Of a DNA stretch of 57,152 bases, positions 1 to 44,594 are shown piece by piece. This DNA comes from Minisyncoccia bacterium (lineage in GTDB: Bacteria > Patescibacteriota > Minisyncoccia > Phycocordibacterales > DATDWN01). How positions within the stretch are numbered: position 1 is the first letter of the stretch; every line of letters begins with the position of its first letter. The notes beneath the pieces were generated by a model. That model saw nothing but the letters and a program-made list of their open reading frames with translations. It was not told where the DNA came from and ran no database searches. The stretch lies in the NCBI GenBank assembly GCA_049297675.1, contig JBAQUS010000006.1, positions 1 to 57,152 of the forward strand, given 5' to 3'. A program made the position numbers and the translations under genes.

Positions 1-119
1 TCCTGGGGTCTTTTCGTCTAACTGCAGGTAACCGGCATCTTCACCGGTATTGTATTTTCACCGAGCAAATCCCCGAGACAGTTCTCCAGTCATTATACCA
101 TTCGTGCACGTCGGAACTT

Positions 120-417
120 CATTACTCGCTATCGCTCGTATCACGATACCAATATACGAATTAGTACGAATGACACGAATAAATGCGAACCCTTTATTTC
201 TAAAGGAATGGACTATATCTTTATCCTACTTGGAAGCCGAGCTTCCAAGTAGGATATTTGCGTGTAGTCTCTACGGCGTCCTTCGACTTCGCTCAGGATA
301 AATCCCAAACTAATCTTAGGTTCCCTCGGTATTACCTTATTTAATTTCTTAAACTTAGGCTTCACCGATACAGCAAATTATCGAGATTGATTACTCAATC
401 AAGGGGCAAGTTCCGAT
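120..417 (-). mobile_element. group I intron-like insertion in 23S (between GGGTAAGT and TCCGAC, E. coli ~1945-1950 region), no ORF
   Basis: About 300 nt split an otherwise contiguous universal 23S block. It contains an R-like CCGTAGAGACTACA, a P8-like hairpin ATCCTACTTGGAAGC-TCGG-CTTCCAAGTAGGAT and an S-like AAAGATATAGTCC. AAGT is repeated at both junctions, so exact splice sites are ambiguous. Confidence 0.65.
143..190. repeat. ACGAAT-rich palindromic element, half copy, inside the 3' part of the 23S intron
   Basis: CACGATACCAATATACGAATTAGTACGAATGACACGAATAAATGCGAAC matches the arm of the intergenic ACGAAT elements. Confidence 0.7.
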
Positions 418-444
418 ACTTACCCGACAAGGAATTTCGCTTTA

Positions 445-803
<359 letters not shown>

Positions 804-980
804 CAGGGCTTATATAATCAATCTAGCGTCTTGCGACATTCAACTACTATATTTGACCTTCTGGCATTGGTCAGGCATCACCTCCTATACATCCACTTAC
901 GTGTTCGCAGGAAGCTGTGTTTTTGATAAACAGTTGCCAGAGATACTTTTGTTGCACCCTCGCACGCAGCACGAGGAAGT

Positions 981-1127
981 CCTAAATTGACCTAATTCCT
1001 AATTGACCTAAATAAATCTCAAATCCAAATATCCAAGCTCAAAACAAGAAATTACTCCTATCTTGAACTCGTCATTAAATAATTTGATCATTGTTTAGTA
1101 ATTAGAAAATTAGAAATTAGAAATTCC
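981..1127. repeat. AT-rich expansion insertion in 23S (AATTAGAAATT / AGGTCAATTAGG repeats)
   Basis: Inserted between conserved 23S blocks. The arms can pair using G-U wobbles. It is the reverse complement of the motif set at 2469-2552. Confidence 0.6.
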
Positions 1128-1697
1128 TTGTGCTACGCACAAGGGAAGCCTTATTCCGAAGTTACGGCTGCTTTTTTGCAGAGTTCCTTGGGGATCTCTC
1201 ACTCGTTCGCCTTACTCTACTCGAGCTGACTACCTGTGTCGGTTTACGGTACGGATTTCACGAAATTAAGCTTAGAAATTTTTCTTGGAAGCGTGCTTTG
1301 TACAATCCCCTTTGACGTATCGCCAGGTTTAAATACTACTTGGTATTATCATTTAAGAAAGTGTGCGGATTTACCTACACAGCTACCTTACAGTACATAC
1401 TCAAATCCAATAATGAGCTGTACATACTACCCTCCGTCCTTCCATCGCATTTCGCAAAAGTGCAGGAATATTAACCTGCTGTCCATCGGCTGCGGCTCTC
1501 GCCATTGCCTTAGGCCCGACTAACCCTGCTCTGATTGACATTGAACAGGAAACCTTAGTCTTTCGGCGCGAAGGGTTCTCGCCTTCGTTGTGGTTACTTG
1601 TGCCAACATTCTTACTTCGCAACGCTCCAGCATGGGTCACCCCTTTGCCTTCAGTGCAGATGCGAATACTCTCCTACCACTGCTCGTACCTCGCTAC

Positions 1698-1805
1698 ACG
1701 ATGCCAATATACGAATTTATGCGAATGAAACGAATATTCGTACACTTTTCGTAAGTGTATTTACATTCGTTTTATTCGTATGTTTATTCGTATCATTCGT
1801 ATCGC
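1698..1805. repeat. ACGAAT-rich palindromic element, full copy, inserted inside 23S rRNA
   Basis: ACGATGCCAATATACGAATTTATGCGAATGAAACGAAT...ATTCGTATCATTCGTATCG sits between conserved 23S blocks and is collinear with the intergenic copies. Confidence 0.8.
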
Positions 1806-2468
1806 AAAGTGAGGCACGAACAATCCTCAGTTTCGGTACTATGTTTAACCCCGATTATTTGCGGCGCAGAATCTCTTACTGAGTGAGCTGTTACGCTATC
1901 TTTAAAGGATGGCTGCTTCTAAGCCAACCTCCTCAGTGTCAGAGAAATTCCACCACCTTAAGTGTACTTAACATAGATTTAGGGACCTTAAATAGAGATC
2001 TAGGCTGTTTCCTTTTTGACGTACGGAGCTTAGCCCCCGCCGTCTAACTGCCGTATTATAATCCTGAGTATTCGGAGTTTGATAGGTTTAGCGATCTTTC
2101 GACCTGTCCAAACCTTCCAGTGCTCTACCCCTCAGGGGATCATACGACGCTAGCCCAAAAGCTATTTCGGAGAGAACCAGCTATTACCAGGCTCGATTAG
2201 CTTTTCACTTCTTATCACAAGTCATCCCAATGTATTGCACGGCATATGGGTTCGGGCCTCCCTTTTGATTTCTCAAAAGTTCACCCTGCTCATAACAAGC
2301 TCGCTCTGGCTTCGGGTCTAATGCATGCGATATATTCGCACTATTCATACTCGGTTTCCCTGCGCCTCCATCCGGCAAAGGATTTAGGCAAAACCGCATA
2401 CATTAACTCGTTGGCTCATTCTTCAATAGGCACGCCATGACCGTCACGTCTCGCTGAACTCGACGTAC

Positions 2469-2552
2469 GGAATTTCTAATTTCTAATTTCTAATTTCTAA
2501 ACGAATTTATTTAGGAATTAGGTCAATTAGTAATTAGTCATTCCGTTGTGTC
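2469..2552. repeat. AT-rich expansion insertion in 23S (GGAATTTCTAATTTCTAATTTCTAATTTCTAA...AGGAATTAGGTCAATTAGTAATTAG)
   Basis: Tandem AATTTCT units followed by the AGGTCAATTAG motif. Reverse complement of the insertion at 981-1127. Confidence 0.6.
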
Positions 2553-2630
2553 GAATACAATGAGACGCAACGGCGCTGACTCCTTGTAAGCATATGGTTT
2601 CAGATCTATTTCACTGTCCTCATCGGACTT

Positions 2631-2667
<37 letters not shown>

Positions 2668-2878
2668 ATCTCAAAATATATTTAGCCTTACCGCTTTAGT
2701 TGCGGCAGATTCCTCCGAGCTATTCGTGTCTCGAAGTACTCAAGAACAGAAACAAAGAAGATTTTTTATTTTCACCTACAGGACCATTACCTTCTAGGGT
2801 CGTGCTTTCCAGCACATTCGGTTAACAAAAAATTTTGTAACTTCTCTCATAATAAATTATGACGTTTCTGCCTTACAA

Positions 2879-3014
2879 CCCCCCCGAACTAACTTTGCCA
2901 TCGTTCTGTTTTTTCAAAACGACACCATTAATTAATTTATGTCTTTACCAAAATTTATTTAAAGAAAATAATTTTGATCAGAACATAAAAACAATGGCAA
3001 AGTTAGTTCGGGGG
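2879..3014. repeat. CCCCGAACTAA long hairpin element inserted in 23S 5' domain
   Basis: CCCCCCGAACTAACTTTGCCATCGTTCTG...CAGAACATAAAAACAATGGCAAAGTTAGTTCGGGG, a 136-nt hairpin. The copy at 3543-3677 is near-identical. Confidence 0.8.
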
Positions 3015-3449
3015 TTTGGGCTCTTACGCTTTCGCTCGCCGCTACTTACGCAATATTGTTCTTACGAACATTGTTTTCTTTTCCTTCGGGTACTGAAATG
3101 TTTTACTTCCCCGAGTGCACATCATATGTAATTCATATGACGACGACATATAGTCGCCAGGTTTCCCCATTCAGAGATTTACGGATTAACGGTTGCTAGG
3201 CACCTCCCCGTAACTTATCGCAGCCATGCTACGTCTTTCATCGCTATTTTGAGTCAAGGCATCCACCATACGCTCTTAAATTTCCCATTAGGAAATTTAA
3301 AAACCACTAACTTGAAAACTGCGACCACTCGCAGATTCAAGTTATTTTGCTCAAACTAATTATTAATTAGTTTGAGAATTTACTTTATCCTGTTACATAT
3401 TATGAATTTATCCGCAACAAAGTTGCAGTTCGAATTATGTAACAGTTTT

Positions 3450-8137: not shown

Positions 8138-8361
8138 AAATAAAAATCTAAAATTTTGGTGAAATTTCAGATTTGGATGAAATTCGACGCGAGAAGTTTT
8201 AAAATGTGAGAAGCCTTACATATCGTAAGGTGACGAGCATTTTAAAACTTGTAGCTAGAAGTTCGCCAAATCTGGAATTTCATACAACAAAAAACCACCT
8301 CTTTCGAAGTGGTTTTTTGCTTTAGGTTACTCTTTAAGTAAACCCTTACTTAACCTAAGTA

Positions 8362-17507: not shown

Positions 17508-17683
17508 TCTTTCTCACCAAATCTTTTTCCAGACCGCTCGCTTTTCCGGCGAAAAGCTCTCTTTGTCCTCGACCTTGATTTGTCAATGAGCCTCACTTCG
17601 CTCGGACTTTGACAAAACCGTGCTTCACAGGTCTGCGGAGTCTTCCAAAAGATTTGGCTCAACGAGATTTTGCTAGTGGTTAT
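17508..17683. terminator. long nested imperfect hairpin between the recA 3' end and the convergent minus-strand cassette
   Basis: GCAAAATCTC...CCAAATCTTTT...CAGACC pairs with GGTCTG...AAAAGATTTGG...GAGATTTTGC. The inner hairpin is TTTGTCAATGAGCC...GGACTTTGACAAA. Confidence 0.4.
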
Positions 17684-41621: not shown

Positions 41622-42044
41622 TTATTTCACATCAACCCCCATGCTTCGGGCCGAGCCTGCAATAATCTTCATAGCAGCTTCAATATCGTTTGCGTTTAGG
41701 TCAACCATTTTTTTCTCGGCGATTTCTTTTAGTTGGGCCTTGGTGATTGAGCCGATTTTAGAAATAGCGTTTTTACCAGAGCCTTTCTCCTTTCCAAGAG
41801 CTTTTAGAATAAGAGCCGAAGCTGGAGGAGTTTTGAGTACAAAAGTAAATGTTCTGTCTTCATAAACAGAAATCTCCACAGGCACTATATCCCCCATCAT
41901 CTTAGCTGTAGCATCATTAAACTGCTTTACGAACTCTCCAATATTAACCCCAGCCTGACCTAGTGCCGGACCTGTAGGAGGAGCAGGAGTTGCCTTACCC
42001 GCTTGAATGACCAATTTTAATTTTTTTGTTATCTTTTTAGCCAT
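41622..42044 (-). CDS. rplK: 50S ribosomal protein L11
   Basis: 140 aa with [34 protein letters not shown]. Confidence 0.95.
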
Positions 42045-42087: not shown

Positions 42088-42633
42088 TTAGGTTTTTTTG
42101 ACCTGTAAGAAGTCGAGCTCCACTGGTGTCTCTCTACCAAACATTGCAACTAGTACTTTTACCTTCCCTCTCTCTTCATCCACTTCTGAAACTTTGCCTT
42201 CCAAGTCTTTAAACGGTCCATCAATAATTTTGACTGCATCATTTATTGAAAGATCTATCTTATGCTTTACATCCCCAGCGTTCATCCTACTGAAAAGCTC
42301 ATCTATCTCTTTTTTGTCAATTGGCACCGGGTAAACACCAGAGCCGACAAAACCAGTGACACGAGGAGTATTTCTGACAACATACCAAGAGTCTTCCGTA
42401 ACTATCATGTCAACTAATATGTATCCAGGATAAATTTTCTCCTCCTCTTCAACCCTTTTTCCACCTTTTATTTTTATTTTCTTCTCAGTAGGAACTATGA
42501 CGTTGAAAATCTTGTCCTCCATTCCAAGAGATTCTATACGCTGTTTGAGATTACGCATAACAGCATTCTCGTACCCAGCGTATGTGTGAACGACATACCA
42601 ATTCCTTCCGCTTTGTATTTGTTGTTTAGACAT
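42088..42633 (-). CDS. nusG: transcription termination/antitermination factor NusG
   Basis: 181 aa with an NGN domain (WYVVHTYAGYENAV) and a KOW domain (VKIIDGPFKDLEGKVSEVDEERGKVKV). Confidence 0.95.
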   Translation of the reverse strand: MSKQQIQSGRNWYVVHTYAGYENAVMRNLKQRIESLGMEDKIFNVIVPTEKKIKIKGGKRVEEEEKIYPGYILVDMIVTEDSWYVVRNTPRVTGFVGSGVYPVPIDKKEIDELFSRMNAGDVKHKIDLSINDAVKIIDGPFKDLEGKVSEVDEERGKVKVLVAMFGRETPVELDFLQVKKT

Positions 42634-42642
42634 ATTTTATAT

Positions 42643-42751
42643 GATACCAATCTACGAATTTATGCGAATGAAACGAATGTTAGATACACTTAACGAATAG
42701 GGCATACGAATCCATTCGTATAATTCGTATGTAATTCGTATATTTGTATCG
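42643..42751. repeat. ACGAAT-rich palindromic element, full copy, between secE and nusG
   Basis: GATACCAATCTACGAATTTATGCGAATGAAACGAATGTTAGATACACTTAACGAATAGGGCATACGAAT...GTAATTCGTATATTTGTATCG. Near-identical to the reverse complement of the copy at 46095-46234. Confidence 0.85.
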
Positions 42752-42761
42752 CTAAATCTTA

Positions 42762-42941
42762 TTAAATAATAAATTTCTCCAAAACCAATTTCAAAAGATA
42801 ATCAAAAAAACCGAGATAAAAAGAAACGAAAACAGAAATGATAACAACAACCACAGTGAAAGCCATGGCCTGATTTCTTGTTGGCCAAGAAACATGCTTC
42901 AGCTCTCCTTGGGTGTCTTTGATGTATGATATAAGTGACAT
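42762..42941 (-). CDS. secE: preprotein translocase subunit SecE (59 aa)
   Basis: Manual translation gives MSLISYIKDTQGELKHVSWPTRNQAMAFTVVVVIISVFVSFYLGFFDYLLKLVLEKFII. It has the canonical ELK.V.WPTR motif and sits upstream of nusG. It falls below the ORF-track cutoff. Confidence 0.75.
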   Translation of the reverse strand: MSLISYIKDTQGELKHVSWPTRNQAMAFTVVVVIISVFVSFYLGFFDYLLKLVLEKFII

Positions 42942-42954
42942 AAATTTATTCTAT

Positions 42955-43052
42955 CACGACACCAATACACGAATGAAGACGAACGTACGAATGGGTTCAG
43001 AATTCTGAATTCAATTCGTGTCATTCGAGTATTTATTCGTAATTCGTGTCGC
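42955..43052. repeat. ACGAAT-family element (CACGAAT variant) upstream of secE
   Basis: CACGACACCAATACACGAATGAAGACGAACGTACGAATGGGTTCAGAATTCTGAATTCAATTCGTGTCATTCGAG...ATTCGTAATTCGTGTCG. Confidence 0.75.
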
Positions 43053-43124
43053 GTTACTAAAAAACCCCTCCTGGGGAATGCCTAAAGAATACTCTTTTTG
43101 AAAATAGAAGTCAATATAACGTAT

Positions 43125-43555
43125 AAAGAAAGGGCCCCGCTTCAAGAGAAGACAAGGGCCCCAATCGCGAGATTCGAAATGCGCTACAGTCGCCACATGG
43201 GATGAAAGTCGATGGCTAGTTACTCACCGGCCTTCACCCCTTTCCGAAAAAACAGGTTGCCCTCGGCAGAAGCGAACGTCGCCTATGCTCTGGCGGGTGT
43301 TGATCAGCGCCCGATTCGGACCGCGATCAACTGCCTGAGTTTTTAAGCTGGATAACCCCCAGCCGAGTGTGGACTAGAGGCGGCCACACACCATCAAACT
43401 GATCTCTGTCGGGAAACTAGCTCTCCCACCAGTTGGAACTCCAAGAGTTCCAGACCAATTTGGCCTCCTGGGACCTACAGCATCATGCACACTTTGTAGT
43501 TCATGCCAGAGCCGTTGTCCCCTCCGCCCACCATCCTAGCACACACTAATTGCTT
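43125..43555 (-). ncRNA. unassigned G+C-rich structured RNA (~400 nt) with intrinsic terminator
   Basis: The segment is markedly more G+C-rich than its flanks and has no ORF of 60 aa or more in any frame. It contains many local hairpins, for example TGGAACTC/GAGTTCCA, GTTGATCGCG/CGCTGATCAAC, GCTGG/CCAGC and GTGTGG/CCACAC. On the reverse strand it ends in GGGCCC...GGGCCC-TTTCTTT, and a second terminator, CCCCAGGAGGGG-TTTTTT, lies at 43076-43059. Confidence 0.45.
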
Positions 43556-43784
43556 TTGTCAAGAAAATTTTCATCAAAAATCCATTTTCTTTTTTAGTAT
43601 CAAAAAACAGCCCTTCACAGAGCCGTTTCTTGTAAATCAAGTAAAAATTGTGGCGCAAGAAAACTTTCACAAACTGAGTGAATTTCGAGGTTCGCAGATT
43701 TTACTTGCGACCAAACTGTACATCTAGTACAGCGCGTGGAGAAAGCAAAATCGAGATCAAAGAAATTCGCCAGTTTTGGAAGTT

Positions 43785-44594
43785 TTATTCGACTTCGTAG
43801 GTTATGGTCACACTCGAGACAACCTTATTCTCCCCGACTGGAACTTGTGGAGGAGTAGGTGCATACTCTGCATTAGCACTGATTGAATCCAGCTTCATCA
43901 TCCCACCATACATTACCGGATAATTTCCTCCCTCTTGGAAATTGACTATTTTTTTAAGTCTCACTCCTAGAGATTTTGATAAAACCTTGGCCTTTTCTTT
44001 TGCATCAATTATTGCTTTTTCTCTAGCTTCATCTTGAACTTTCTCCTCATCATCAATGACAAAATTAAGTCCAGTTGCGTTTGTCACACCAAGCTCTCCA
44101 ACTTTTGTCAGTACCAAGCCAGCGTCAGCTGTTTTTCTTATTTTTATGGTCACACTTTGATTAACCTCATAGCCAGTAAGAGTTTGCTTTCCAGGTGGAC
44201 AATAATCTCTAGTACAAATCTGAGCTACAGAATAGTCATATTTTGGATAAAAAGTGTAGTTATCAGTTTTAATATCTTTCTCTTCAATACCAAGACCTTT
44301 AAGAGCATCTATTACGCTATTAATTTTTTTAGTAGATTTATCCTGTGCATCTTTGACAGTTTTCCCTTCCTCAACAACGGAAAAGCCGAAGGACCCAATA
44401 TCCGGAACTGCCAAAACTTCCCCTGTTCCAGTCACAGAGATCACGTTTGCTGGATATTCACCTCGCCCTATGTATGAATTTTCCTTAAGAGCGTTTAGAG
44501 ACTTAATGCCAAGAAAAACTGCTAGTAAAATACAAACTGCAAGTAAGCTATTAAATAATCTTTTCTTTTGCAAATCATTTAGAGATTGATACAT
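43785..44594 (-). CDS. SIMPL/DUF541-family periplasmic protein
   Basis: 269 aa with an N-terminal TM/signal anchor and the family-typical ISVTGTGEVLAVPDIGSFGFSV. Confidence 0.75.
   Translation of the reverse strand: MYQSLNDLQKKRLFNSLLAVCILLAVFLGIKSLNALKENSYIGRGEYPANVISVTGTGEVLAVPDIGSFGFSVVEEGKTVKDAQDKSTKKINSVIDALKGLGIEEKDIKTDNYTFYPKYDYSVAQICTRDYCPPGKQTLTGYEVNQSVTIKIRKTADAGLVLTKVGELGVTNATGLNFVIDDEEKVQDEAREKAIIDAKEKAKVLSKSLGVRLKKIVNFQEGGNYPVMYGGMMKLDSISANAEYAPTPPQVPVGENKVVSSVTITYEVE

What the first reader, a model, noticed from the sequence alone, without database searches (positions are those of the whole stretch)
43125..43555. Unassigned ~400-nt G+C-rich structured RNA upstream of secE-nusG
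**Seen in the sequence.**
- The segment stands out sharply in G+C content and has no ORF of 60 aa or more in any frame.
- It is packed with short perfect hairpins.
- On the minus strand it ends in two intrinsic terminators: GGGCCC...CTTC-TCTT-GAAG...GGGCCC plus TTTCTTT, then CCCC-AGGA-GGGG plus TTTTTT.
- Size and composition fit RNase P RNA or tmRNA, which have not been seen elsewhere in this window.
- I found only fragmentary similarity: GGGCGGAGGGGA, CGACAGAGATCAGTTT and AAAGGGGTGAAGGCCGGTGAGTAAC resemble RNase P conserved regions, but they are not in the canonical order.
- I could not find a tRNA-like 3' end (…TTCGA.TCC…CCA) as tmRNA would require.

**Inference.** This is either a highly divergent housekeeping RNA or a novel structured RNA.
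Basis: partly seen in the sequence, partly recalled or inferred. Interest (0 to 1): 0.6.

Follow-up and report, generated by a model that had tools for sequence, protein, structure and literature searches.

The report
New structured RNA gene in Parcubacteria
This is a stand-alone gene for a folded RNA of about 400 bases that matches no known RNA family and was found in only two related ultra-small bacteria, at a different place in each genome.

Summary
The G+C-rich, ORF-poor segment is real. It lies on the minus strand, from a sigma-70-type promoter (43562..43533) to a hairpin plus U-run (43162..43123). It is not RNase P RNA or tmRNA: the same genome has both on another contig. No Rfam 15 family matches it, even at E<=10.

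It first looked like an orphan. Covariance models built from the window alone then found one homologue in another species of the genus (G461). That copy is 71% identical over 286 nt and has a promoter-like motif and a terminator-like hairpin of its own (by eye). It sits between FKBP and tgt, not between SIMPL and secE, and each site is empty in the other genome.

Helices predicted from the window alone are kept in G461, with 12 of 45 and 10 of 50 pairs changed on both sides; slid controls give 0-3.

I read it as a new, rare, relocatable structured non-coding RNA family. Its function is unknown.

Limits: only two members, no expression data, modest folding z-scores.

The parts
43533..43562 (-). 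Sigma-70-type promoter of the RNA gene: TTGACA, 18-nt spacer, TAGGAT preceded by TG. The start site is inferred near 43527.
   Evidence: 10 of 12 matches, TG present. The G461 copy has TTGACA-17-TGnTAAGCT at the matching place. I read that; the scan did not call it.
43198..43524 (-). Conserved core of the RNA (about 327 nt) that aligns with the G461 homologue.
   Evidence: 71.3% identity over 286 nt, E 2e-25. Model R3 scores 187.5 bits here and 202.7 bits in G461.
43470..43521 (-). P1, a long 5' hairpin. Its base is invariant, its inner pairs covary and its tip is variable.
   Evidence: (helix 1: 3 pairs changed on both sides, none broken).
43462..43469 (-). Invariant purine-rich linker that looks like a Shine-Dalgarno sequence. 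Five of its bases can pair with the loop of P3.
   Evidence: Invariant. The pairing appears as helix 6, with no covariation possible. No conserved ORF follows it.
43396..43461 (-). Three-way junction: P2 (43461-43452 with 43405-43396), P2a hairpin (43451-43435) and P2b hairpin (43427-43411) with an invariant 5-nt loop at 43421-43417.
   Evidence: P2 has 3 pairs changed on both sides, P2a has 3 changed on both sides plus 3 on one side out of 7 pairs, and P2b has 2.
43367..43389 (-). P3 hairpin with an invariant C-rich loop.
   Evidence: The stem is almost invariant, so it is not tested by covariation. RNAalifold on the full alignment prefers a different pairing here.
43346..43364 (-). P4 hairpin with an invariant 5-nt loop.
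   Evidence: helix 11: one U-A to G-C change; the same hairpin when the G461 copy is folded alone.
43295..43335 (-). P5, a long hairpin. Its base is conserved and its upper stem is completely different in G461 but still paired.
   Evidence: helices 12 and 13: 6 pairs changed on both sides; helix 1: 4.
43266..43288 (-). P6 hairpin.
   Evidence: helix 15; helix 3.
43199..43240 (-). P7, the 3' hairpin. Its invariant loop block (43221-43214) contains a palindromic tetranucleotide complementary to the P2b loop.
   Evidence: helix 17: 3 pairs changed on both sides; helix 5: 4 changed on both sides, 3 broken. The loop-loop contact is my inference from the sequences.
43123..43162 (-). Intrinsic-terminator-like hairpin (6-bp G+C stem enclosing a 4-bp stem) plus a U-rich tail. 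This is the 3' end of the RNA gene.
   Evidence: The hairpin is in the MFE and centroid folds. It was not called by the simple scan. The G461 copy ends in a different hairpin plus U-run.
43059..43114 (-). NOT part of the RNA. This is the genus-conserved unit in front of secE: a promoter-like TTGACT, then a -10-like box, then about 10 nt later a CCCC-N4-GGGG hairpin with a U-run of 5-6 (U6 in the window).
   Evidence: (promoter 43114..43086). I saw it in all 31 printed spacers of the 30 loci; in the shortest spacers little else lies between the SIMPL stop and the secE start.
43660..43784 (-). Copy of a MITE-like repeat (family A, about 115-125 nt, with terminal inverted repeats). It starts at the stop codon of SIMPL. 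A terminator-like hairpin plus U6 follows at about 43626-43602.
   Evidence: (13 copies in the genome).
43785..44594 (-). Upstream neighbour: SIMPL / DUF541 protein.
   Evidence: PF04402, E 7e-49.
42762..42941 (-). Downstream neighbour: secE. It is followed by nusG (42088-42633) and rplK (41622-42044).
   Evidence: PF00584, PF02357, PF00298 and PF03946.

Best explanation
Window ~43527..43123 (minus strand) is an independent gene for a structured non-coding RNA of about 400 nt. It belongs to a family that is absent from Rfam 15.

SHOWN
- It has a promoter match and a terminator-like hairpin of its own.
- It has no coding signal.
- It has exactly one homologue among the genomes searched, in another species of the same Parcubacteria genus (G461).
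- The two copies share about 10 helices, which are kept through compensatory base changes.
- The two copies lie at unrelated chromosomal sites: SIMPL|secE here and FKBP|tgt in G461. Each site is empty in the other genome.

INFERRED
- The whole promoter-RNA-terminator unit is accessory DNA that was inserted or relocated.
- The window's site is a hot spot where relatives carry other small G+C-rich inserts.
- The RNA acts in trans through its fold, because no protein gene travels with it and the downstream genes differ.
- Invariant loops suggest two long-range contacts: the linker with the P3 loop, and the P2b loop with the P7 loop. The second pair carries a palindromic tetranucleotide, so it could join two molecules as well as two domains of one.

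MY GUESS FOR THE MECHANISM (low confidence)
- It is a scaffold-type or self-associating 'ornate' RNA, not a regulator of its neighbouring genes.
For: TRANSCRIPTION UNIT
- Promoter.
- Terminator hairpin.
- The G461 copy has matching signals.

NOT CODING
- Stops in all frames and no period-3 signal.
- A read-through of the most open frame gave only tandem-repeat junk among 1.84 billion representative proteins.
- The only ORF with a ribosome-binding-like motif (13 codons) is not kept in G461: the distance to the shared stop is 44 nt against 46 nt, and there is an early stop.

NO KNOWN FAMILY
- 0 relevant hits among 4227 Rfam models at gathering score.
- Only sub-threshold noise at E<=10. For G461 the same.

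HOMOLOGUE
- Model R1 hits 1 of 40 other genus genomes: 46.8 bits, E 3.6e-7.
- Model R2 hits the same 1 of 40: 58.8 bits, E 3.4e-9.
- The two hits are collinear.
- Direct blastn gives 71.3% identity over 286 nt, E 2e-25.

STRUCTURE
- I took the structures predicted from the window sequence alone and counted pairs in G461.
- R1: 12 of 45 pairs changed on both sides, 98.8% of cells paired. Slid controls gave 0-3 such pairs and 28-49% paired.
- R2: 10 of 50 pairs changed on both sides, 92.6% paired. Slid controls gave 0-2.
- RNAalifold on the full alignment: 101 pairs, 26 changed on both sides. Shuffles gave 12.9 +/- 2.6 and slid controls 0-5.
- Folding G461 alone gives several of the same hairpins, by my comparison of the folds.

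RELOCATION
- In G000, FKBP and tgt are 23 nt apart. In G461 they are 555 nt apart and hold the RNA.
- The SIMPL-secE spacer of G461 is 209 nt and has no match to the RNA.

HOT SPOT
- Of 30 loci, 20 have a spacer of 71-256 nt.
- 7 loci (this one included) have a longer spacer: 5 relatives carry unrelated inserts there, and in a sixth (L036) the extra ORF lies downstream of the secE unit.
- In 3 loci SIMPL is not within the locus.
Against: - There are only two members, so invariant positions say nothing and the covariation counts are small.
- Alignments A4 and A5 were fitted to the model's structure. The structure on A3 was derived from the same two sequences. Both choices favour pairing.
- Identity does not differ between paired columns (121 of 180) and unpaired columns (89 of 145).
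- Folding z-scores are modest: -2.3 to -3.6. That is no better than neighbouring G+C-rich coding inserts.
- The simple scans did not call the G461 promoter or either terminator.
- The topology around P3 is unresolved: RNAalifold prefers another pairing.
- Nothing shows what the RNA does.
Confidence: 0.72

Rival explanations
1. It is the RNA part of a mobile or defence element whose protein partner is encoded elsewhere, such as a guide-type or retroelement-type RNA. It does not work on its own.
For: - Patchy distribution (2 of 41 genomes) and different insertion sites.
- G+C content is foreign to the genome.
- Both carrier genomes encode reverse transcriptases.
Against: - No protein gene is shared by the two loci.
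- The reverse transcriptase of G000 lies on another contig. I read it as a diversity-generating retroelement because it sits beside a 133-nt repeat pair at 86.5% identity.
- The RNA has no similarity to that locus.
- No TnpB-type domain occurs in either genome (0 of 2).
- No HEARO or other Rfam match.
- I saw no terminal repeats or target duplication at the junctions.
Confidence: 0.13
2. It is the decayed remnant of a foreign G+C-rich protein gene, like the ORFan inserts at the same site in relatives. It is still transcribed but has no function.
For: - Relatives carry G+C-rich ORFan genes with the same promoter/terminator layout at this site.
- Those ORFan genes fold as stably as this element.
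- One frame has only 2 stops inside the transcript.
Against: - A second copy at 71% identity keeps the helices through compensatory changes, not a reading frame. Indels of 1-3 nt and stops break every frame.
- That frame has the lowest G+C at the third codon position (0.47) and there is no period-3 signal.
- No protein relative was found.
Confidence: 0.06
3. It is a cis-acting leader or riboswitch that controls secE-nusG-rplK.
For: It lies upstream of secE on the same strand.
Against: - It ends in its own terminator and is followed by a separate, genus-conserved promoter unit.
- 39 of 40 other genus genomes have secE without it.
- The homologue sits in front of tgt instead.
Confidence: 0.03
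4. It is an mRNA for one or more very small proteins.
For: A purine-rich ribosome-binding-like motif lies 5 nt before a TTG that opens a 13-codon, Trp-rich ORF (read).
Against: - The ORF is not conserved in G461: that frame stops after 2 codons.
- The motif itself is invariant and complementary to an invariant loop, which fits a structural role.
Confidence: 0.03
5. It is a divergent RNase P RNA, tmRNA, SRP RNA or 6S RNA.
For: - The size and G+C content fit.
- No SRP RNA or 6S RNA was detected elsewhere in the genome.
Against: - RNase P RNA and tmRNA are present elsewhere.
- The element is missing from 39 of 40 relatives.
- No Rfam hit at E<=10.
- The genome also lacks a detectable Ffh M domain and SRP-type GTPase domain, so an SRP RNA is not expected.
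Confidence: 0.01

Closest known systems
Large 'ornate' bacterial non-coding RNAs of unknown or newly emerging function (OLE, GOLLD, ROOL, raiA). The names and properties are recalled, not taken from any call.
   Same: - A stand-alone gene of several hundred nucleotides.
- Many helices with invariant loops and junctions.
- Patchy distribution and links to mobile or variable DNA.
- Found as a long G+C-rich intergenic region in an A+T-rich genome. That is the criterion of the Breaker-lab pipelines (abstract of PMC8723152, seen in the listing).
   Different: - No sequence or structure match to any of those Rfam models, even at E<=10.
- Much rarer: 2 genomes in about 1000 searched.
- The host is a Parcubacterium.
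RNase P RNA (Rfam RF00010 / RF00011)
   Same: Similar length.
   Different: - The strings are out of order.
- No model match.
- The genome's RNase P RNA candidate lies at C11:31527-31992.
tmRNA (RF00023)
   Same: Similar length.
   Different: - ARAGORN finds no tRNA-like ends or tag frame.
- The real tmRNA lies at C11:152401-152800.
HEARO / omega-RNA and TnpB-associated RNAs
   Same: G+C-rich, structured, a few hundred nucleotides long and tied to mobile DNA.
   Different: - Those RNAs lie next to their nuclease gene. Here the neighbours are SIMPL and secE, or FKBP and tgt.
- No TnpB-type domain in either genome.
- No Rfam match.

Membership tests
RNase P RNA (bacterial) | Scores at or above the Rfam gathering score for RF00010 or RF00011. 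| tested here: not met
   No hit in the window at gathering score and none in 42900-43800 at E<=10.
RNase P RNA (bacterial) | Universally conserved regions (CR-I and CR-V type strings; names recalled) in the canonical order. | tested here: not met
   By my reading, the look-alike strings are out of order. In the genome's RNase P candidate I read a CR-I-like string. blastn of the element against it finds nothing.
RNase P RNA (bacterial) | Essential gene, present in all relatives. | tested here: not met
   The element is present in 2 of 41 genus genomes.
tmRNA | tRNA-like acceptor and T-arm ends and a tag reading frame, as detected by ARAGORN or RF00023. | tested here: not met
   ARAGORN finds 4 tRNAs and no tmRNA in the window. 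RF00023 hits C11:152401-152800 instead.
SRP RNA | Match to RF00169 or RF01854, and conserved across relatives. | tested here: not met
   No hit in the genome or in 26 genus genomes. The element is absent from 39 of 40 relatives.
HEARO / omega-RNA / TnpB-associated RNA | Lies next to an IscB, TnpB or IS605-type gene, and matches the Rfam model. | tested here: not met
   The neighbours are SIMPL, secE, FKBP and tgt. PF07282 is in 0 of 2 genomes. No Rfam hit.
Retron or DGR template RNA | Lies next to a reverse transcriptase. For a DGR, also a template/variable repeat pair. | tested here: not met
   The reverse transcriptase of G000 is on contig C11 beside its own 133-nt repeat pair. The element has no similarity to that locus.
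Riboswitch or cis-regulatory leader | The same class of gene lies downstream in all homologues, with no terminator-plus-promoter in between. | tested here: not met
   secE is downstream here and tgt in G461. The element has its own terminator, and a separate promoter unit follows it.
Structured non-coding RNA (generic criterion) | Homologues keep the helices through compensatory changes. | tested here: met
   22 of 95 pairs of the window-only structures are changed on both sides, against 0-3 in the slid controls. Only two sequences were available.
Structured non-coding RNA (generic criterion) | Transcribed as a discrete RNA. | not testable with these tools
Only the promoter and terminator motifs support transcription.

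The most novel reading that the evidence does not exclude
This is the first sighting of a new class of large 'ornate' RNA in ultra-small (CPR) bacteria. It would be carried as a self-contained promoter-RNA-terminator cassette that moves between intergenic hot spots. Its invariant palindromic loops would let it form long-range or intermolecular kissing contacts. That would make it an RNA-only assembly or a ribozyme-like machine, not a regulator.
Probability: 0.2. Interest if true: 0.75.

Novelty: new variant of a known kind. Interest (0 to 1): 0.5.

Why it matters
- Large, intricately folded bacterial RNAs are few. Those studied have tended to be ribozymes, ribonucleoprotein scaffolds or self-assembling particles (recalled, not from a call).
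- A new one in the candidate phyla radiation would add a new object for RNA structural biology. These organisms have tiny genomes and almost no described RNA biology beyond rRNA, tRNA, RNase P RNA and tmRNA.
- The two copies sit in reciprocally empty sites. This shows that a bare RNA gene, with no protein gene attached, can be accessory and relocatable.
- The case carries a methods lesson. My DNA-similarity search at genus level covered only 36 of the 40 relatives and so did not include the carrier. My exact-word scans used a hairpin that later proved variable. Structure-aware models run on all 40 relatives found the homologue.

Tried and rejected
HOUSEKEEPING RNA
- Rejected.

ORPHAN OR FOREIGN REMNANT (my working view up)
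- It rested on blastn with 0 real hits in 36 same-genus and 24 same-order genomes and in 400 phylum genomes (two chance matches of 24-34 nt, E about 0.006-0.007).
- No match in phages or plasmids.
- No match in 85 fetched loci by blastn and nhmmer.
- This view was overturned. The carrier, G461, was simply not among the 36 genus genomes drawn.

EXACT-WORD SCANS OF THE BIG COLLECTIONS
- A 23-mer found nothing in genome, viral or metagenome contigs.
- In hindsight that word lies in the variable upper stem of P5, so those scans say nothing about relatives.
- The second scans of the genome and metagenome collections went to the SIMPL protein. They gave 42 loci at no more than 65% identity, none with the RNA.
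- As a result, no conserved-block scan of those two collections could be made.

WIDER SEARCHES WITH CONSERVED FEATURES (all negative)
- A 30-nt conserved pattern with up to 3 mismatches: 0 of 400 class genomes and 0 viral contigs.
- Core model R3: 0 of 149 order genomes and 0 of 149 phylum genomes.

PSEUDOGENE TEST
- Frame read-through with X at the stops: 4 hits, all by repeat or composition.
- Period-3 test. Note that one intact 98-aa insert ORF of a relative also lacks period-3 signal, so this test is weak for short sequences.

PROTEIN PARTNERS
- Reverse transcriptase is present in both genomes and, in G000, lies beside a 133-nt repeat pair that I read as a DGR.
- TnpB-type domain absent.

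OTHER CHECKS
- Inserts of relatives: no Pfam family, one weak PHROG. One 212-aa ORFan has only 2 relatives in 5.8 billion proteins.
- Paired against unpaired column identity: no difference.
- Internal or terminal repeats of the element: nothing convincing.
- Literature (listings only; passages of PMC10768705): I found nothing on such an RNA. The searches were narrow, and paper supplements were closed and not asked for.
Full report
WHAT IS THERE

The window comes from an 882-kb, 37.3% G+C genome in 20 contigs. Titles of related loci name Parcubacteria, Paceibacterota and Minisyncoccia.

On the minus strand the gene order is:
- PAP2-family gene;
- SIMPL/DUF541 (43785-44594);
- an 843-nt spacer;
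- secE (42762-42941);
- nusG;
- rplK.

The reported segment is the G+C-rich part of that spacer: 0.52-0.565 against 0.28-0.44 in the flanks.
- No ORF of 60 aa or more lies inside it.
- Every frame has stops and there is no period-3 signal.
- On the minus strand a good promoter match sits at 43562..43533: TTGACA, 18 nt, TAGGAT with an upstream TG.
- About 405 nt downstream, a G+C-rich hairpin followed by a U-rich tail sits at 43162..43123. It is present in the MFE and centroid folds but was not called by the simple terminator scan.

WHAT IT IS NOT

- Rfam 15 gives no match for the segment at gathering score. At E<=10 it gives only unrelated noise.
- ARAGORN sees no tmRNA.
- The genome has an RNase P RNA candidate at C11:31527-31992 (87.5 bits, below the 100-bit gathering score) and a tmRNA at C11:152401-152800 (112 bits).
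- In one search I read an RNase P-like conserved-region motif and tmRNA-like ends in these (motifs recalled). Neither has any similarity to the element.
- Their G+C contents are 43% and 38%, so being a structured RNA does not by itself explain 55% G+C in this genome.
A unit made of a TTGACT promoter-like box, a -10-like box and, about 10 nt later, a CCCC-N4-GGGG hairpin with a U-run of 5-6 appears in every spacer of the 30 genus loci that I printed. In the shortest spacers (71-101 nt) little else lies between SIMPL and secE.

THE DETOUR

- blastn of the element found nothing in 36 same-genus and 24 same-order genomes.
- It found nothing real in 400 genomes of the phylum.
- It found nothing in phage or plasmid collections.
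- The SIMPL-secE-nusG order is kept in the genus. NusG is 87-94% identical.
- Of 30 loci, 20 have a spacer of 71-256 nt. Seven (this one included) have a longer one, five of the relatives with unrelated, often G+C-rich inserts there that carry their own promoter and terminator; in the sixth (L036) the extra ORF lies downstream of the secE unit. Three have a different upstream gene.
- Those inserts are ORFans: no Pfam family, and one has 2 relatives in 5.8 billion proteins.
- The element's folding z-score is -3.58 or -2.9. That is no better than the coding inserts (-3.6 to -6.8) and far from RNase P RNA (-9.2).
- At that point the most economical reading was an orphan foreign remnant.

THE TURN

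I built covariance models from the window sequence alone:
- R1: 43396-43521, 126 nt.
- R2: 43186-43335, 150 nt.

I ran both over all 40 other genomes of the genus. Both hit one and the same genome, G461, in collinear order on one contig:
- R1: 46.8 bits, E 3.6e-7.
- R2: 58.8 bits, E 3.4e-9.

A direct blastn then gave 71.3% identity over 286 nt (E 2e-25). The homologue is visible to BLAST. G461 had simply not been among the 36 genus genomes drawn.

The G461 copy:
- lies between an FKBP-type isomerase gene and tgt;
- has a TTGACA-17-TGnTAAGCT promoter-like motif (my reading; the scan did not call it);
- ends in its own hairpin plus U-run.

EVIDENCE FOR A CONSERVED FOLD

The cleanest test uses structures predicted from the window alone and asks what G461 does at those pairs.
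- R1: 12 of 45 pairs are changed on both sides and stay paired, 1 cell is broken, and 98.8% of cells are paired. With the 3' partner slid by 1-3 columns, the figures are 0-3 pairs and 28-49%.
- R2: 10 of 50 pairs are changed on both sides and 92.6% of cells are paired. Slid controls give 0-2.
- RNAalifold on the full MAFFT alignment gives 101 pairs, 26 of them changed on both sides. Shuffles give 12.9 +/- 2.6 and slid controls 0-5.

Two helices are the most telling:
- P2a (43451-43435): six of seven positions of one strand differ and all seven pairs hold.
- The upper stem of P5 (43335-43295): it is entirely different in sequence yet still paired.

Folding the G461 RNA alone gives several of the same hairpins, by my comparison.

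Caveats:
- There are only two sequences.
- A4 and A5 are fitted to the models.
- The structure on A3 comes from the same sequences.
- Identity does not differ between paired and unpaired columns.
- The pairing around P3 is ambiguous.

ANATOMY (WINDOW COORDINATES)

- P1: 43521-43470.
- Invariant purine-rich linker: 43469-43462.
- Three-way junction P2/P2a/P2b: 43461-43396.
- P3: 43389-43367.
- P4: 43364-43346.
- P5: 43335-43295.
- P6: 43288-43266.
- P7: 43240-43199.
- A window-specific tail, then the terminator: 43162-43123.

Several loops and joints are identical in the two species.
- Five bases of the linker are complementary to the P3 loop (helix 6).
- The 5-nt loop of P2b is complementary to the invariant block in the P7 loop. 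Both contain the same palindromic tetranucleotide.
- These contacts are my inference. Covariation cannot test them because nothing varies there.
- The linker looks like a ribosome-binding site, but the 13-codon ORF behind it is not kept in G461.

DISTRIBUTION AND MOBILITY

- The RNA is in 2 of 41 genus genomes.
- Core model R3: 0 of 149 further genomes of the order and 0 of 149 genomes of the phylum.
- 30-nt conserved pattern with up to 3 mismatches: 0 of 400 genomes of the class.
- Outside the two carriers, 0 of 71 fetched loci.
- 0 viral contigs.
- In G000, FKBP and tgt are 23 nt apart. In G461 they are 555 nt apart.
- The SIMPL-secE spacer of G461 is 209 nt without the RNA.
- So each site is empty in the other genome.
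- The two carriers are not the closest pair in the genus: NusG is 90% identical, and nusG DNA is 76% identical.
- The simplest reading is that the whole promoter-RNA-terminator unit was inserted or moved, here into a spacer that is a hot spot for small inserts.
- I saw no terminal repeats or target duplications.
- No protein gene is common to the two loci.
- Both genomes have reverse transcriptases. The one in G000 sits in a ribosomal-protein operon on another contig, beside a 133-nt repeat pair at 86.5% identity, which I read as a diversity-generating retroelement. It has no similarity to the RNA.
- TnpB-type domains are absent.

HOW IT LIKELY WORKS

Shown:
- an independent, non-coding unit;
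- a conserved multi-helix fold;
- accessory status and relocation.

Inferred:
- It is transcribed from its own strong promoter.
- It acts in trans through its three-dimensional fold.

My best guess is a scaffold-type or self-associating ornate RNA. The reasons are the invariant loops, the palindromic loop pair, the absence of any linked protein gene and the unrelated downstream genes. I hold this loosely.

A partner protein encoded elsewhere (13%), a decayed gene (6%), a cis-leader (3%), a micro-protein mRNA (3%) and a housekeeping RNA (1%) are the rivals.

VERDICT

- The housekeeping reading is wrong.
- The 'novel structured RNA' reading is supported by a second member and by compensatory changes.
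- It is a new RNA family as far as Rfam 15 and my narrow paper searches can tell (listings).
- It is very rare and its function is unknown.

Noticed in passing
window 43059-43114 (minus), and the same place in the 29 related loci L009-L037: A genus-conserved mini-unit lies directly upstream of secE. It has a TTGACT promoter-like box, a -10-like box and, about 10 nt later, a 4-5-bp CCCC/GGGG hairpin with a U-run of 5-6. A promoter followed at once by a weak terminator in front of secE-nusG suggests a leader attenuator, perhaps sensitive to NusG or NusA. It may also serve as the terminator of the upstream SIMPL gene.
   Followed up: partly
window 43660-43784 and 8166-8276 (family A); window 17524-17669 (family B); other contigs of G000: There are two families of MITE-like repeats with terminal inverted repeats: A (about 115 nt, 13 copies) and B (about 132 nt, 21 copies). 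In the copies I printed, family A begins at or within a few bases of the stop codon of the upstream gene. G+C-rich islands lie within 600-800 nt of 6 of 13 A copies and 9 of 21 B copies.
   Followed up: partly
whole genome G000, 25 genus, 30 order and 40 phylum genomes: No signal-recognition-particle parts were detected.
- RF00169: 0 of 26 genomes.
- RF01854: none in G000.
- Ffh M domain PF02978: none in G000.
- SRP54-type GTPase domain PF00448 over its cut-off: 0 of 26 genus genomes, 0 of 41 phylum genomes, and in the order only 2 marginal P-loop matches among 31 genomes.
- Controls were positive in 14 of 14 genomes.
- No DTxGR motif in any frame of G000.

This is either a phylum-wide trait or a blind spot of the tool's first filter. 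The listings of two paper searches did not settle it.
   Followed up: partly
G000 contig C11:126165-128952 (outside the window): A locus I read as a diversity-generating retroelement sits inside the ribosomal-protein operon, between rplB and rpsS. It has a G+C-rich 283-aa target gene with a variable repeat at 126837-126969, a template repeat at 127383-127515 (86.5% identity over 133 nt) and a 330-aa reverse transcriptase.
   Followed up: partly
SIMPL-secE spacer of relatives (L010, L016, L017, L019, L020, L023, L036), and about 70 G+C-rich islands in G000: Small G+C-rich ORFan genes or non-coding inserts, each with a consensus promoter and terminator, occupy the same spacer in relatives and many other spacers of G000. 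They are unrelated to each other. Their folding z-scores as RNA are unusually low: 4 of 6 tested coding pieces gave -3.5 to -6.8, one gave -5.0 at 0.48 G+C, and one gave only -1.4.
   Followed up: partly
G000 contig C3:34428-35162 (outside the window): Another 735-nt G+C-rich stretch has little open frame, long-range inverted repeats and no Rfam hit at E<=0.01. It may be another unclassified RNA or a mobile element.
   Followed up: no
window 1-3289: The 23S rRNA gene carries two adjacent group I introns at 190-431 and 442-679.
   Followed up: no
window 42700-42750 and 42960-43050: Clusters of short ACGAAT / ATTCGT-type repeats lie in the spacers on both sides of secE.
   Followed up: no
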